A stretch of DNA of 64,000 nucleotides, taken from sequence record OZ346167.1. One strand, 5' to 3'. The translations under genes and the position numbers were made by a program. The DNA is from a phage. The notes beneath the pieces are model-generated. The model saw nothing but the letters and a program-made list of their open reading frames with translations, searched no databases and was not told the DNA's origin. Every line of letters starts with the position of its first letter. The first letter of the stretch is position 1. Shown one piece after another: positions 11,255-33,514 of the stretch.

Positions 11255-19270
<8,016 letters not shown>

Positions 19271-26603: not shown

Positions 26604-26987
26604 TCAAATACCTGTGCAGCTTCTGTTTTCTAAGAAATACTCAACACCATACATAGCTTTTTGCATCAAATCCTCTTTAAACTGGATACGATGATTTAGC
26701 ATAGCCTGTACATCAATATTATCAGGGTGCTTCTCTTTAATGTTTGCAGATTGCAAGAAGTACTCTGCAAGAACACGATACTGATAGTCAGTTACTTTAT
26801 CAGTCATCTCTGTCAAAGACTCTTCAGAGATTGGTTTAAGTAGCTCACCATTAGCTAGAGCAACACCTTTTACAATCTGGCAAGTATCCTCTGGAACACC
26901 TGATAAGTCCACATTTGGAAGTTCTGTTGCATTGACTGGTAAATTCATTGCCATAACCATTGCAGCAGCTAATAAAATCTTTTTCAT
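26604..26987 (-). CDS. secreted/periplasmic protein (signal peptide)
   Basis: N-terminus MKKILLAAAMVMAMNLPVNA is signal-peptide-like. Confidence 0.45.
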   Translation of the reverse strand: MKKILLAAAMVMAMNLPVNATELPNVDLSGVPEDTCQIVKGVALANGELLKPISEESLTEMTDKVTDYQYRVLAEYFLQSANIKEKHPDNIDVQAMLNHRIQFKEDLMQKAMYGVEYFLENRSCTGI

Positions 26988-27031
26988 AATGACCTCAAAG
27001 TTATATTAAATTTTGTATTACATTGAGTATA

Positions 27032-27060
27032 AAAATAAGCTATAACACCTGACTTGTCAA
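27032..27060 (-). promoter_or_regulatory. sigma70-like promoter for secreted-protein gene
   Basis: on minus strand TTGACA-17 nt-TATTTT about 45 nt upstream of start at 26987. Confidence 0.4.
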
Positions 27061-27099
27061 CAGATTTTATAGCTTATTTGGCAGATTTTTTATAAGGCT

Positions 27100-27530
27100 A
27101 CTGCCATCCTTCCATACATTACCTTACCTCACCTGACCTGACCCTACCTAACATTACCGTGCCACACCTCACTTAAAAACCCTCTTAAAAGACTCTTAAG
27201 TGATGTAATCGAATTTTAATGTAGCTCCGATTAACTACCCATACCTTGCATTACTTCACCAAACCGTACATTACTTCACCAAACCATACATTACCAGACC
27301 ATGCCACACCTGTCCAAACTCAACCTCATTAAAAGACCCTGTTTAAAGACCTTTTAAAAAGGTAAGTCTCATTTTAATGTAGCTGAGACTAACTACCCAT
27401 ACCATACCTTACACCGCCGTACCACACCGAACATCACCAAACCATACCAAGCCAGAGCCTACTGTACCATACCGAACATCACTTAAAAACCCTTTTCAAA
27501 GACTCTTAAGTGATGCTGGTGAGTACCCGT
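27100..27530. repeat. non-coding G-depleted (A/C/T-rich) repeat region with conserved hairpin elements
   Basis: three A/C-rich tracts; inverted-repeat element TCACTTAA...TTAAGTGA at 27169-27204 and 27479-27514; two hairpins (27207-27232, 27365-27390) with identical loop ATTTTAATGTAGCT and different but complementary stems, each followed by TAACTACCCATACC. Confidence 0.6.
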
Positions 27531-27729
27531 TGGTTTATGATGCTCAGTATACTCACCAAATTTTCTATGTCAACAACTTTTATAAAAAAGTTCTGATAGC
27601 TATATGCGTCACGAAACAAAAGATTGTAAACAAGACACCCATTGCAAAAGATGTGTCCAAAAGCTTACTTGCAACGTATGACAATACAAAGACAACCAGT
27701 ATAAACAAAATGACTGTACTGAACATAGT

Positions 27730-28866
27730 TTACTCATAATCCCTAATAACTAGCCCAACAGGGAACTGTAAAGAACCCTTACGAGTCATCTTCTGGAACT
27801 GAACCGTTAAAGGTTTCCCGATAAACTCTTCAGGATGTTCAGCAAGATACTGTTTCTTCTCGTGTGTAGTTTTCCATGAAACATCTACAAAGACGTTAGG
27901 AAGAGTCTCTACAACGAACTTACCATGACCACGTTTATCAGTCTTTACACCAGTCACTTTAAACTCTTCAGTGTGCATCTTCTTGTGCTTAATCAAGAAG
28001 TATGAACGGTGACAACACTCATAGAAGGAGTCTTCAGAGATTGAGCGGTACATTGCACCTTCAAACTTAGTTTCAACCCACTTATCATGAGCTTCATCAA
28101 ACTCTTCCCAAGAATTTACACGGATAGTCTGCACAGGAACAACTCTACAGGTATCCCCAAGCTCAACAATAGGTGAGTTATCAATAACTTCACGACGCTC
28201 AGGCCAAGATTTTGAATTGTCACAGATATCATACCAGTAGAATTTAAGAAGGTGACGGTCTGGATTGTCAGCATTCTTAATCATAGATACAATATCTTCT
28301 AAGTCCCAACCATGAGCATAAATCTCACCATCAAAGTCTTCAACTTGTGGATGTAATTTAAGCAACAAAAGCAAATCTGGGATTAGTTCTGTTGGAACGT
28401 TGTAAACAGTATTCTCACGAGAATAAGCTGTGAAACTGACTGAATCAGCATCTCTTGAAATTCTACAACGGACACCATCAAGTTTTGGTTGAGCATCAGC
28501 AGGGAACTTCAGATACTTTGCATGACTAACCTTTGCAGCATCATGAGCAAGCTGTACACCTACCTTCTCAGTATTCTGTGCAGATTCTTTTGTGTAAGCA
28601 TAACCTTTACGGTCAACTTGCTTTTTATACTTAGCAGCAACTTCAAAGAGAGCTTGCTGTTCAGCGTTACGCTCATTCTTTTTACCGATGTTTTTAGGTT
28701 CTGCTGTATACTCTTCAAACATCATCTTGCCATTTTCTTTACCATAGGTTGTAATAACTTTGTCACCTACAGCAACGCATGACCAGACGTTGAAAGAGCC
28801 ATCTTTATTTTGTTTGTATAGGATTGTCATTTTATTCCTCTGAGTGATACCAAGTGTTGCAAGCAT
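27730..28866 (-). CDS. ATP-dependent DNA ligase
   Basis: adenylation motif KLDGVR plus DGEIY and EGAMYR motifs. Confidence 0.75.
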   Translation of the reverse strand: MLATLGITQRNKMTILYKQNKDGSFNVWSCVAVGDKVITTYGKENGKMMFEEYTAEPKNIGKKNERNAEQQALFEVAAKYKKQVDRKGYAYTKESAQNTEKVGVQLAHDAAKVSHAKYLKFPADAQPKLDGVRCRISRDADSVSFTAYSRENTVYNVPTELIPDLLLLLKLHPQVEDFDGEIYAHGWDLEDIVSMIKNADNPDRHLLKFYWYDICDNSKSWPERREVIDNSPIVELGDTCRVVPVQTIRVNSWEEFDEAHDKWVETKFEGAMYRSISEDSFYECCHRSYFLIKHKKMHTEEFKVTGVKTDKRGHGKFVVETLPNVFVDVSWKTTHEKKQYLAEHPEEFIGKPLTVQFQKMTRKGSLQFPVGLVIRDYE

Positions 28867-31076: not shown

Positions 31077-31347
31077 CTGGTCAATACACTCGCAAGGTGT
31101 ACCAGTTCTCTTATGAACTTCTCCGCATTTCTACGGAGTGTCGGACTATATCACGTAGTAGTAATACTACCGTTGCACTTGGGAATGGTCATTGGCTTAC
31201 CACCCTACTCTACTCAGTTCATACGTTAAGTATGCTTTTCGATAGTCTCTGAACGTTCCTCTTAAGAGGCTTCGCTGCTGATTACCATATCTTTACAGAC
31301 TTAGGCTTCCAGCAATTCACAACGTTTTACATGCGCCACTGACGCAT
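31077..31347 (-). mobile_element. group I intron (ORF-less) in DNA polymerase motif B
   Basis: on the transcribed strand the conserved core elements P (AAUUGCUGGAAG), Q (AAUCAGCAGCG), R (GUUCAGAGACUA; + coords 31243-31252) and S (GAUAUAGUCC; 31143-31151) occur in canonical order; ends in G; splits polymerase motif B. Confidence 0.75.
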
Positions 31348-33514
31348 AAATGCCATTTTTGGCTTTCTTACGACCTTTTGTAATCTCGTGGAGAAGTTCC
31401 TCATCCTGTGTCTCCCTACAACGAACAATATCTTCTTCCTTGTTCAGACCAAAGTAAATACTGTTCAGTGTATGCGCATCAGTCCCTGTGTAGACTTCAT
31501 AGAGGTCGTTCTCAGCATCATAACGAAGATACTTGTCAGTTTCTGGATTAAGGTGCTTATCAAGATGTTTGCAATAATATCTCCCATCTTCTTGCTTGGT
31601 AAATTCTACTGACTCTTTACCTTCAGTTACTGCTTTAGTGAACTCTTTATCACCCATAAAGTTACACAGTAAAACAAGCTGTGCAGAGTTCTGGTCAACA
31701 GAAACAATGTTAGTCCCCTCTTCACAAATCCACACTGCCCTCATAGGTGCTCCATAGACAGCAGCACCAGACGGTACGTTTACAATACCATATTGTGTCA
31801 TACGTCCAGTTGAAGTACCAAACACCATTGCACCAGCACTAAGGCGACCATCAGGACGAATCTGGTTCAACCAACCTTTTTCATCATCCTTTGAGTTCTC
31901 AATAGTTCTGCGTCGGTGCATCAAAGTATAGTACTTAGCAATCTTCTGTCCAAGCTCACCTTCAATCGTATCATAAGATGATTCAGTAAGTTTTGGTGAA
32001 GTACGGATTAAGCAAGGCTCAAGCAAGTCTGTGTATTTCTTCACAGACCAGTTATGCTCAATGTACTGTACACCTTCATGTTCAACATAACTCAAACCAC
32101 ACCGCTCAACCATTTCCTGCCACTTAGGATGCTTTGTAATCATCTTTTTATTGTCTTTGAAACGACAAACTTTGACAGGGCGACCATCTGAGTCTTTCTT
32201 GTAATTCCAGTCATCTGGAATCCAACCAACTGATTTCAAGTAGTCTTTAACAACTGCTACCTGAGTCATACGAGAAACTTCAAACTCAATTGGTGTATAT
32301 GGTGCATCAATCAAACCTGTGTAGCGACTTGACTCAAGTTCAAAGTGATTAACAACGTGGCTGTTATAGTACTTCACAGTTTTGACTGTTTTTACTGGCT
32401 TCCAGTCTTTGCATTTCTTACCAATCTTTGCGTTCAACTCATTGCAAATTGCACGAGCATCCTTCATTGCTACAAATCCCTCTTTGTACTCTTCACCAGT
32501 TACAGAGTTGGTTGGTGTATAGCAATTTCTCTTTTCAATGTTAAAAATCTTTGTAGTTGGCTTACCAAATGGCTTGATTTCATATGTCTGCATCTCACCG
32601 TTACGTACCTGCTGACGATACTTTGTCTTAGGGTACTTGGTAATCCTCTTCAGCCCATCTGCATGACCGAATGCTTCAACATATTCATTCCAAGCTTTTG
32701 CAAACTCTTCTCCAGTAACTTTACCTTTGGTCTTAATAGTTGGAGGAAGATGTGGTTCAACCTCTGAAGCAAGCTCATTAGTCAACTTGTCAAGTTCCTT
32801 TACATGGAACTCCATAAGCTCTTTATCAGCTTTCCAACCATTGATAGCTTGCTGGCTCATCCAGAAAGATGTTTCTTTAGCTCGCATGTAGGTTTCATAA
32901 GTGTCTATGCCACACTTCTTAAGCTTGAGATACTCGTTATCAAGTGCCCGTTTAGTTTTGGCGTTAATACGGATATCTTCTACGACACGAGTGAAGATTT
33001 CTGCATTCCACACACCCCAATGCTCAATCTCTGGCTTACGAACACCAACACGAGCACCCCATGCAGCCAAACCATGAGCACCTTTATAACCCTTTGGAGT
33101 TGGCCTATCCATCCACTGAACACGAGACTGGATAAGAGAATCCTGAAAGAAATTACCCCACGGCTTACATTTTGGATTATCAAAGTTCCATAAATCAGGT
33201 GCAATGTGATTGAAAACCCACCAGTCATAACCGAGACCATTATGGATGCAAAGACGTTTTGCCTTTAACGCAAATTCAACACCTTCACGTAAACCACCTT
33301 TGATGTACTTAGTGTACTTGTGACCGAGGATAGGCTCATCTGTAAAGACCCATACAGGTGGCTCTTCATCGTCAGATTTATAGTCTGCAAAGGCCATTAC
33401 GTGAACTTTAGTGAACTCAAGGAGTAAACCATCAGTTTCTGTATCACCAACCAAATGTAAGTTTTTAAAATCTACGTTTTCCATTTTTACTCCCTCTAAA
33501 ATCATTAACCTCAT
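31348..33514 (-). CDS. DNA polymerase (family A, T7 gp5-like), exon 1 (3'-5' exonuclease and most of polymerase domain)
   Basis: motif A-like IVSVDQNSAQL and start of motif B RKKAKNGIY; continuous ORF ends in a stop 16 codons into the intron. Confidence 0.8.

What the first reader, a model, noticed from the sequence alone, without database searches (positions are those of the whole stretch)
27100..27530. Unexplained ~430-bp non-coding region: G-depleted A/C-rich tracts plus hairpins with conserved loop and covarying stems
Between two minus-strand genes lies a region with extreme strand skew (plus strand almost G-free, for example CCATACATTACCTTACCTCACCTGACCTGACCCTACC), arranged as three units. 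Units 1 and 3 end in an inverted-repeat element TCACTTAAAAACCC(T/C)...AAAGACTCTTAAGTGATG. Units 1 and 2 carry hairpins with an identical 14-nt loop ATTTTAATGTAGCT but different, compensating stems (AATCG/CGATT versus AGTCTC/GAGACT), each followed by TAACTACCCATACC. Covariation with a conserved loop points to a selected structure. Candidates are a replication origin or primase-loading zone (ACCA/ACCC/ACAC-rich, next to a T7-type primase-helicase system), a set of small structured RNAs, or a packaging site. No coding capacity; the track ORF 27530-27739 here is low-complexity and probably spurious.
Basis: seen in the sequence. Interest (0 to 1): 0.7.

Follow-up and report, generated by a model that had tools for sequence, protein, structure and literature searches.

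The report
Effector-less VIPR guide-RNA array
The region is an array of three guide RNAs (vrRNAs) of the recently described phage VIPR RNA-guided DNA-silencing system, aimed at a satellite element of E. coli, but this phage lacks the gene for the Vipr protein that would use them.

Summary
The sequence is not an origin or a packaging site. On the minus (transcribed) strand, 27080-27573 holds a near-consensus sigma-70 promoter followed by three units. Each unit is a long G·U-rich hairpin, then 11-17 in-register pentamers of the form (G/T/A)-G-(T/C)-N-N, then a 34-nt 3' pseudoknot.

This is the architecture of vrRNAs of the VIPR system (bioRxiv 10.64898/2026.04.26.720920 and .720927). The promoter, spacers and tails are homologous to those of phage SUSP1, where the RNAs were detected and shown to guide the Vipr protein. 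In about half of related Felixounaviruses a two-gene cassette sits inside the array. Its 195-aa protein matches PDB 36pp, "SUSP1 Vipr protein" (E 5e-79).

The window has no vipr or vap gene, and neither does the complete genome of its closest relative, JK55. Under the published one-base-skip rule, guide a matches 26-31 of 32 positions at one site in a 107-aa gene of the published satellite target. Guide c matches 19 of 22 at the same site on the other strand. Guide b has no target.

The kind is already known. The effector-less ("orphan") state in a lytic phage appears undescribed.

The parts
27546..27573 (-). P1: sigma-70 promoter TTGACA-16 nt-TATACT that drives the array
   Evidence: 11 of 12 consensus positions. 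Found upstream of the first guide in all but one (L009) of the 30 array-bearing loci by the pattern used. P1 plus leader is 94 of 100 nt identical to SUSP1, where the downstream RNAs were detected by sRNA-seq (paper .720920).
27513..27545 (-). Transcribed leader between P1 and the first spacer hairpin
   Evidence: Coordinates. Conserved in related loci. Its 3' part (GTACTCACC) is complementary to GGTGAGTA, which overlaps the -10 box.
27480..27512 (-).
   Evidence: As RNA, 27476-27516 folds into a 19-bp hairpin that includes G·U pairs: -17.5 kcal/mol, z -4.8, 0 of 200 shuffles as good. Its function (processing site?) is inferred, not shown.
27399..27478 (-). vrRNA guide a: 16 pentamer repeats
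   Evidence: 15 of 16 repeats fit D-G-Y-N-N. Under the 1-nt-skip rule it matches 26-31 of 32 NN positions at one orthologous site in all 11 satellite loci. Shuffled guides reach at most 23, tested on the first five loci.
27365..27398 (-). 3' tail of guide a: pseudoknot with S1 GTAG/CTAC and S2 AGTCTC/GAGACT
Evidence: Pair counts over 38 distinct tails: 95.3% paired, and 9 of 10 pairs change on both sides. The same tail follows two of the SUSP1 vrRNAs.
27326..27364 (-). Spacer hairpin A2 (CCTTTTTAAAAGGTC...TCTTTTAATGAGG)
   Evidence: Folds into 12+5 bp, -13.1 kcal/mol, z -2.4. In vipr-bearing relatives the same ~38-nt sequence follows both a type-1 tail upstream of the cassette and the terminator downstream of it. 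That makes it the likely recombination site that removed vipr-vap (inference).
27241..27325 (-). vrRNA guide b: 17 pentamer repeats with an internal 20-nt duplication
   Evidence: 16 of 17 repeats fit D-G-Y-N-N; GGACA does not. JK55 carries the identical tract. No target reaches 75% in 1.79 Mb of fetched loci or 65% in the 11 satellite loci. An 11-repeat sub-pattern has no exact match in IMG/VR.
27207..27240 (-). 3' tail of guide b: pseudoknot with S1 GTAG/CTAC and S2 AATCGG/TCGATT
Evidence: Relatives show G·U, G-C and A-U at the closing pair.
27169..27206 (-).
   Evidence: Folds into 16+3 bp, -14.4 kcal/mol, z -4.0.
27114..27168 (-). vrRNA guide c: 11 pentamer repeats
   Evidence: 11 of 11 repeats fit D-G-Y-N-N. 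It matches 19 of 22 NN positions in 4 satellite variants, at the same site as guide a on the other strand; shuffled guides reach at most 18. Here the skipped base is not the codon wobble position.
27080..27113 (-). 3' tail of guide c, terminal type: S1 AAGG/CCTT, S2 GGCAG/CTGCC, A-rich L3
   Evidence: Aligns without gaps to the other tails and keeps both helices through compensatory changes. The same tail ends the last of the three downstream SUSP1 vrRNAs.
27029..27079 (-). Hairpin (13+5 bp) followed by a U-run, with promoter P2 (TTGACA-17 nt-TATTTT, 27032-27060) inside it. Likely end of the array transcript and start of the g127 transcript
   Evidence: -17.8 kcal/mol, z -5.3. Promoter scan: 10 of 12. 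Conserved in all array-bearing loci inspected. The terminator role is inferred.

Best explanation
The region is a three-guide vrRNA array of a type II VIPR (Viral Interference Programmable Repeat) system of the SUSP1 clade, read on the minus strand.

**How it works (inferred by homology to SUSP1)**
- Host RNA polymerase starts at P1 and transcribes a precursor.
- The precursor holds three units: spacer hairpin, then 11-17 GGY/NN pentamers, then a 3' pseudoknot tail.
- In the published system the mature RNAs are about 100 nt.
- One Vipr protomer binds each pentamer and sequesters GGY. The NN dinucleotides are presented to pair with double-stranded DNA, skipping every third target base. The filament then silences transcription of the target.

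**Targets (shown here)**
- Guides a and c are aimed at a single site in a 107-aa gene of the chromosomal satellite element that parasitises these phages.

**The effector is missing (shown here)**
- The vipr and vap1 genes, which sit inside the array in about half of the relatives, are absent.
- Inferred: they were lost by recombination between the ~38-nt direct repeats CCTTTTTAAAAGGTCTTTAA.AGGGTCTTTTAATGAGG that flank the cassette.

**Consequence (my estimates)**
- The guides cannot act alone.
- Most likely (about 0.55) they are a recently orphaned array that is still transcribed.
- Less likely (about 0.3-0.4) they are kept because they can load onto Vipr made by a co-infecting vipr-bearing relative.
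For: 1. **Repeat code.** 929 in-register pentamers from 74 distinct tracts give pos1 G78/T15/A7/C0, pos2 G98, pos3 T89/C11, and pos4-5 near random (0.08-0.10 bits). 74 of 77 tract lengths are 1 mod 5. This is the GGY/NN code of vrRNAs (paper .720920).
2. **Tail.** The 3' pseudoknot is supported by covariation: 95.3% of cells paired against 31-45% for slid controls, and 9 of 10 pairs change on both sides. The SUSP1 pseudoknot was predicted and seen by cryo-EM.
3. **Homology to SUSP1.** The SUSP1 locus (L014) has exactly four tract-plus-tail units, one upstream and three downstream of the genes. That matches the four sRNA-seq transcripts reported. P1 plus leader is 94% identical to the window.
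4. **The cassette protein is Vipr.** A profile of its family hits PDB 36pp, 'SUSP1 Vipr protein', at E 5e-79. The residues that bind GGY (H17, R138, D177, R179) are invariant or nearly so in my alignment.
5. **Independent link between tracts and Vipr.** Of 118 IMG/VR loci found only by the DNA pattern (GGTNN)6GGT, 35 encode a Vipr homolog, usually next to the tract.
6. **Targets.** Guide a matches 26-31 of 32 positions at the orthologous site in all 11 satellites, with the skipped base at the codon wobble position. Guide c matches 19 of 22 at the same site. One satellite (L181) carries the protein accessions the paper names for the SUSP1-targeted satellite.
7. **No effector.** There is no Vipr-family hit at E<=10, and no tblastn hit to Vipr or Vap better than E 1.1, in the window. 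The complete JK55 genome likewise has no Vipr-family hit (E<=10) and no tblastn hit better than E 0.33.
Against: - No expression data exist for this phage. Transcription and processing are inferred from SUSP1.
- The window covers about 64 of roughly 86 kb, so a vipr gene elsewhere in this genome is excluded only by analogy: JK55 has none, and all vipr-bearing records show a single copy; where checked, it lies at this locus.
- Guide b has no target, carries a 20-nt duplication and one non-GGY repeat, and at 17 repeats is just outside the published 9-16 range.
- Guide c's skipped base is not the wobble position.
- Direct repeats are compatible with a deletion. They do not rule out the reverse event, insertion of the cassette.
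Confidence: 0.9

Rival explanations
1. The orphan array is kept by selection and works in trans. Its vrRNAs load onto Vipr made by a co-infecting vipr-bearing Felixounavirus. The effect could be shared anti-satellite defence at no cost to this phage, or titration or redirection of a rival's Vipr, much as RNA anti-CRISPRs do.
For: - 10 of 33 loci are orphan arrays. Array DNA is present in 231 phage records, against 118 Ounavirinae records with vipr.
- Orphan guides reach >=80% match on the satellite as often as guides of vipr-bearing loci: 8 of 14 against 34 of 61, with 0 for shuffled guides.
- GGY conservation is not significantly lower in orphans: 71% against 77%, p=0.10.
- P1 and the tails are intact.
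- Satellites carry single vrRNAs but no Vipr (4 of 11), so use of Vipr in trans already seems to occur.
Against: - The sample is small.
- Recent and repeated deletion between the direct repeats would give the same picture.
- No vipr-like DNA is present in 5,426 E. coli genomes, so Vipr could come only from a co-infecting phage.
- No guide of the window matches the fetched phage loci at >=75%.
Confidence: 0.3
2. The region is a replication origin or primase-loading zone. A strong promoter makes a G-rich transcript that forms an R-loop, and the displaced G-rich strand offers dense T7-type primase sites.
For: - A strong promoter lies directly upstream.
- GC skew is extreme.
- GGTC-like motifs occur in the tracts.
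- The region lies among replication genes.
Against: - Positions 4-5 of each pentamer are free and hold 16-19% C, so the constraint is on a GGY triplet, not on composition.
- The NN positions spell a target in a satellite.
- The module is absent from three relatives that have the same ligase and neighbouring genes.
- The tracts travel with Vipr in unrelated phages.
Confidence: 0.02
3. The region is a packaging or terminal-repeat site.
For: - One record (warpig) starts inside the homologous region.
- PhageTerm calls direct terminal repeats for some Felixounaviruses.
Against: - In the records of those phages the region lies about 44-45 kb from the record start, though I do not know whether those records were re-opened at the physical ends.
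- Assemblies often break at repeats.
- All the evidence listed for the vrRNA reading applies here too.
Confidence: 0.01
4. The region is only a recombination or regulatory cassette: promoter-plus-stem-loop repeats like the PeSLs of T4-type phages, or a nut-like antitermination site.
For: - The module is bounded by two sigma-70 promoters. Relatives without it keep a single promoter at the same place.
- The repeats flank a variable two-gene cassette.
- The spacers contain GTCTTTA/GTCTTTT, which resembles boxA and Csp-binding sequences. This resemblance is from memory only and was not tested.
Against: - This reading explains the mobility of the module. It does not explain the GGY/NN code, the pseudoknot or the satellite matches.
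- It fits as a description of how the module moves, not of what it does.
Confidence: 0.05

Closest known systems
VIPR type II system of Escherichia phage SUSP1 (vrRNA1-4, vipr, vap1); bioRxiv 10.64898/2026.04.26.720920 and 10.64898/2026.04.26.720927
   Same: - The same locus, between the DNA ligase gene and the g127 gene.
- The same promoter: 94% identity over P1 plus leader.
- The same GGY/NN pentamer code.
- The same tail types (type 1 and the terminal type).
- The same satellite target.
   Different: - No vipr and no vap1 gene.
- Three guides in one uninterrupted array, instead of one upstream and three downstream of the genes.
- One tail (S2 AATCGG/TCGATT) is a variant not present in SUSP1 itself.
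- Guide b has 17 repeats.
Orphan CRISPR arrays, phage-borne mini-arrays and RNA anti-CRISPRs (solitary repeat RNAs that sequester Cas proteins); recalled from my own knowledge
   Same: Guide or repeat RNAs encoded without the effector. They could work only with an effector supplied in trans, or by titrating it.
   Different: - A different RNA architecture: a gapped pentamer code instead of repeat-spacer units.
- No evidence here for either trans use or inhibition.
vrRNAs carried by the SUSP1-type satellite elements of E. coli
   Same: A single tract of 13 repeats plus a pseudoknot tail of the same family, with no Vipr gene in the element (4 of 11 satellites). The paper says some satellites encode their own vrRNAs.
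   Different: - Those are stand-alone units: their own promoter, one guide and a canonical terminator.
- They sit in an integrated satellite, not in the helper phage.
TRAP-binding sites in Bacillus trp leaders (9-11 (G/U)AG triplets with 2-3-nt spacers); recalled from my own knowledge
   Same: A conserved triplet plus a free 2-nt spacer, repeated about 11 times, with one protein subunit per repeat.
   Different: - TRAP is a closed ring that does not use the spacer bases to read a target.
- Unrelated protein fold, and a different triplet.

Membership tests
vrRNA (guide RNA of VIPR systems) | 9-16 tandem pentamers with conserved GGY and hypervariable NN | tested here: met
   Guides a, b and c have 16, 17 and 11 repeats. 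15/16, 16/17 and 11/11 fit D-G-Y-N-N. Across relatives G2 is 98%, Y3 100% and N4-N5 about 0.1 bit. Guide b is one repeat over the published range.
vrRNA (guide RNA of VIPR systems) | Invariable structured 3' tail (a pseudoknot in the SUSP1 clade) | tested here: met
   All three guides end in a 34-nt tail that fits the two-helix pseudoknot. 95.3% of cells are paired and 9 of 10 pairs change on both sides.
vrRNA (guide RNA of VIPR systems) | NN dinucleotides match a natural DNA target under the 1-nt-skip (NNx) rule at >=80% | tested here: met
   Guide a: 81-97% in 11 of 11 satellites. Guide c: 86% in 4 of 11. Guide b: no target. Shuffled guides never reach 80%.
vrRNA (guide RNA of VIPR systems) | Expressed as RNAs of about 100 nt that co-purify with Vipr | not testable with these tools
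   Only indirect support: a near-consensus promoter that is homologous to the SUSP1 promoter.
Complete VIPR system (type II) | A vipr gene (RAMP-like, about 190 aa) next to the vrRNAs | tested here: not met
   No Vipr-family HMM hit at E<=10 in six frames of the window or in the complete genome of JK55. The window is therefore filed as a vrRNA array, not as a complete VIPR system.
Complete VIPR system (type II) | A vap1 accessory gene | tested here: not met
   tblastn with the 146-aa protein gives nothing better than E 1.1 in the window and no hit at E<=1 in JK55.
Phage replication origin (R-loop or iteron type) | Conserved presence in relatives that share the replication machinery | tested here: not met
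   L013, L015 and L022 have 85-241 nt between the ligase and g127 genes, with one promoter and no repeats. The tail motif occurs only at this locus.
Any Rfam family | Covariance-model match | tested here: not met
   No hit better than E 3.7 in 27000-27600. Rfam 15 gives no vrRNA-type match to this region.

The most novel reading that the evidence does not exclude
Effector-less vrRNA arrays, present in roughly half of Felixounaviruses, are maintained by selection as trans-acting RNAs. They would borrow Vipr from co-infecting relatives, so that guides act as a shared or stolen good. Or they would soak up and misdirect a rival's Vipr, as an RNA anti-VIPR analogous to RNA anti-CRISPRs.
Probability: 0.25. 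Interest if true: 0.75.

Novelty: new variant of a known kind. Interest (0 to 1): 0.55.

Why it matters
VIPR was reported in 2026 as an RNA-guided DNA-recognition system proposed to be older than CRISPR. Its discovery pipeline started from the Vipr protein, so arrays without the protein would not have been collected.

This window shows that a lytic Felixounavirus can carry an intact-looking, promoter-driven guide array with no effector. The array is still aimed at the known satellite target. The same state is common in the genus.

That makes two questions directly testable:
- Can vrRNAs be used in trans during co-infection?
- How fast are VIPR modules gained and lost through their own repeats?

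For genome annotation, it explains a G-poor 'non-coding gap' that is left unannotated, or marked only as a repeat region, in the Felixounavirus records I inspected.

Tried and rejected
**Ideas considered before the identification and then dropped**
- R-loop origin or primase zone: the periodic GGY with free NN and the absence from close relatives argue against it.
- Packaging site.
- nut-like antitermination or Csp binding by GTCTTT(T/A) in the spacers: a resemblance from memory only, not tested.
- A rut site on the antisense strand.
- Chi-like GT-rich recombination hotspots: only one weak Chi-like octamer in 77 tracts.
- G-quadruplexes.
- sigma-dependent or elemental pause arrays.
- ToxI-like antitoxin repeats: the unit is too long.

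**Searches that led nowhere**
- Rfam on the region.
- Pfam and PHROGs on the cassette and neighbouring proteins: all 'unknown function'.
- The Felix O1 genome paper and other Felixounavirus papers do not describe the region.
- Guide b, whole, halved or with the duplication collapsed: no target in 11 satellites or in 1.79 Mb of loci, and no exact IMG/VR match.
- blastn of vipr-vap and of the array against 5,426 E. coli genomes: no match.
- The paper's supplementary target tables are not held.

**Not used**
- The AlphaFold model of the Vipr homolog (pLDDT 95.9) was not needed once PDB 36pp matched by sequence.

Full report
**1. The observation**

The window is a Felixounavirus (Felix O1/wV8-like, Ounavirinae). 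Window 26000-29000 matches 260 phage records at 80-99% identity. The flagged stretch lies between the minus-strand gene 26604-26987 (called g127 here) and a 48-aa ORF plus the DNA ligase gene at 27730-28866.

GC skew reaches -0.61.

**2. Anatomy on the transcribed strand**

All flanking genes are on the minus strand. A near-consensus sigma-70 promoter (TTGACA-16 nt-TATACT, 27573-27546) points into the region. A second promoter (27060-27032) sits inside a hairpin at its end.

Read on the minus strand, the 'A/C-rich tracts' are G/T-rich and strictly periodic. The 12 best period-5 scores for GT in the whole window, on both strands, all fall here.

I fetched 29 IMG/VR loci through the ligase gene and 3 GenBank loci. 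With the window that makes 33 loci.

- The ligase-g127 spacer varies from 85 to 2,135 nt.
- 77 distinct tracts have lengths of 46-96 nt, and 74 of them are 1 mod 5.
- 929 in-register pentamers give G78/T15/A7 at position 1, G98 at position 2 and T89/C11 at position 3.
- Positions 4-5 are essentially random.

In relatives that hairpin comes with several different complementary stems.

**3. Finding what it is**

Apart from plain microsatellites it returned many unrelated viral contigs with degenerate GGTNN tracts, often in long tandem series.

In two of these (L068, L154) the gene just upstream ended in a GDWRP/GDFRP...G motif. The 195-aa protein encoded inside the array of most Felixounaviruses has the same motif. 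An HMM of that family (525 homologs, none named and none with a Pfam domain among the 120 listed) found a member in 35 of the 118 loci that had been retrieved by DNA pattern alone. In most of them it lies next to the tract.

A profile search of PDB sequences gave one hit: 36pp, 'SUSP1 Vipr protein', E 5e-79. That led to two 2026 preprints on VIPR systems.

The preprints report the following.

- Vipr is a RAMP-like protein of about 20 kDa.
- It polymerises on vrRNAs made of 9-16 GGY/NN pentamers capped by a 3' pseudoknot, one protomer per repeat.
- The NN dinucleotides pair with double-stranded DNA, skipping every third base. Transcription of the target is silenced.
- SUSP1-clade guides mostly target a satellite phage in E. 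coli genomes.
- The GGY-binding residues named in the cryo-EM paper (H17, R138, D177, R179) are invariant or nearly invariant in my alignment.

**4. Membership of the window's elements**

SUSP1 is one of my loci (L014). It has exactly four tract-plus-tail units, one upstream and three downstream of vipr-vap. This matches the four RNAs seen by sRNA-seq. Its promoter and leader are 94% identical to the window's.

The window has three units (coordinates).

| Guide | Repeats | Coordinates | Tail |
|---|---|---|---|
| a | 16 | 27399-27478 | 27365-27398 |
| b | 17 | 27241-27325 | 27207-27240 |
| c | 11 | 27114-27168 | 27080-27113 |

The tails align without gaps to 38 distinct tails from phages and satellites. 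They fit an H-type pseudoknot.

- S1 occurs as GTAG/CTAC, GTGG/CCAC or AAGG/CCTT.
- S2 occurs in five main versions.
- L3 is A-rich.
- 95.3% of cells are paired, against 31-45% when the partners are slid.
- 9 of 10 pairs change on both sides.

These are a handful of paralogous classes, not 38 independent events. Even so, the compensation is systematic.

As RNA they fold into hairpins of 16-19 bp that depend on G·U pairs (z -2.4 to -4.8). That suggests an RNA-level role, perhaps in processing. This is inference only; the papers say nothing about it.

**5. No effector**

The window has no Vipr-family hit at E<=10 in six frames, and no tblastn hit to Vipr or Vap better than E 1.1.

Its closest relative in this region is JK55. 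JK55 has 84% identity over the whole array, and its middle guide is identical. I fetched its complete genome: it has three guides and no vipr or vap anywhere.

Frequencies:
- Among the 33 loci, 20 carry the cassette, 10 are effector-less arrays of 1-3 guides, and 3 have no module.
- In GenBank phages, array DNA occurs in 231 records and same-clade vipr in 118.

In cassette-bearing relatives the ~38-nt sequence CCTTTTTAAAAGGTCTTTAA.AGGGTCTTTTAATGAGG occurs on both sides of the cassette. On one side it follows a type-1 tail; on the other it follows the terminator. The window has one copy, exactly at that junction (27326-27364). The simplest history is deletion by recombination between the repeats (inference).

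The whole module is bounded by two sigma-70 promoters. Relatives that lack it keep a single promoter at that place. This probably explains how the module is gained and lost as a block.

**6. Targets**

The paper names a satellite whose baseplate protein is 72% identical to that of SUSP1. Using the window's baseplate gene (13482-14279) as a blastn query, I found the element in 474 of 5,426 complete E. coli genomes. I fetched 11 variants. One of them, L181, carries the exact protein accessions cited in the paper.

Results under the published NNx rule:

- **Guide a** matches 26-31 of 32 positions at the orthologous site of a 107-aa gene in all 11 variants, with 31 of 32 in strain DEC5B. The skipped base falls on the codon wobble position. 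Shuffled guides reach at most 23, tested on the first five loci.
- **Guide c** matches 19 of 22 in four variants, at the same site on the opposite strand. Shuffled guides reach at most 18. Here the skipped base is not the wobble position.
- **Guide b** has no target in any form tried.
- No guide matches the window itself at >=75%.

As a wider check on five satellites, 34 of 61 distinct guides from cassette-bearing loci and 8 of 14 from effector-less arrays reach >=80%. No shuffled guide does. This reproduces the published rule independently. It also shows that orphan guides are not visibly degraded. GGY conservation is 71% in orphans against 77% in cassette-bearing loci (p=0.10).

**7. Where Vipr could come from**

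None of the 11 satellites encodes Vipr, although 4 carry one vrRNA of their own. No E. coli genome has DNA similar to vipr-vap. Only a co-infecting vipr-bearing phage could supply the protein.

**8. Verdict**

The element is a vrRNA array of a known, very recently described system. The identification is secure (about 0.9). The array-without-effector state in a lytic phage is a variant I did not find described. The published pipeline started from the protein, and neither 'orphan' nor 'Felixounavirus' occurs in the discovery paper.

Whether the array is a fresh relic or a trans-acting RNA cannot be settled by sequence alone.

Noticed in passing
window 31121-31404 (-): A group I intron (Rfam RF00028, 64.2 bits against a gathering score of 50, E 5.4e-16) interrupts the DNA polymerase gene. 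Residues 1-714 of the JK55 polymerase align to 33484-31343 and residues 715-899 to 31074-30520. JK55 has no insert there.
   Followed up: partly
window 27529-27553 (-); also L013, L015 and L022 at the equivalent promoter: An inverted repeat brackets the -10 box and the start site of P1. Its arms differ between phages but stay complementary: GGTGAGTA/TACTCACC, CCTGACGGG/CCCGTCAGG, AGTGGGT/ACCCACT and ATAGCAAG/CTTGCTAT. The function is unknown.
   Followed up: no
window 13482-14279 (+); loci L179-L189: The baseplate gene is up to 92.7% identical in DNA to a gene of an ~11-15-kb chromosomal satellite found in 474 of 5,426 complete E. coli genomes. The satellite is integrated in a DUF72 gene next to yecD, or near tonB, or near yegS. 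It carries tape-measure, baseplate and serine-recombinase genes. 4 of 11 copies carry one vrRNA, and none carries vipr.
   Followed up: partly
L154 3200-4400; L068; L078; L075; L161 and others: Unrelated IMG/VR contigs carry very long vrRNA-like arrays next to distant Vipr homologs. L154, for example, has about 1.2 kb with roughly 20 tracts, each ending in GGCAGTT. Other degenerate GGTNN arrays have no Vipr homolog within the stretch held.
   Followed up: partly
window 27165-27210, 27322-27368 and 27476-27516 (-): The spacers between guides fold as RNA into 16-19-bp hairpins rich in G·U pairs. Two sequence-different spacer types adopt the same shape. They are candidate processing sites, for example for RNase III; the VIPR papers do not discuss them.
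   Followed up: partly
window 27580-27726 (-): A 48-aa hydrophobic ORF (phrog_22006) is 98-100% identical in seven related loci and 86% in one, and is absent from others. The plus-strand ORF 27530-27739 is antisense to it and probably spurious.
   Followed up: partly
window 27241-27325 (-): Guide b contains a 20-nt (four-repeat) tandem duplication. The terminal guide of relatives differs by the number of GGTCA and GGTAA repeats. Adjacent identical pentamers are more frequent than in shuffles (55 against 40 +/- 6). Guides therefore change by in-register slippage, which would shift the reading of the target.
   Followed up: no
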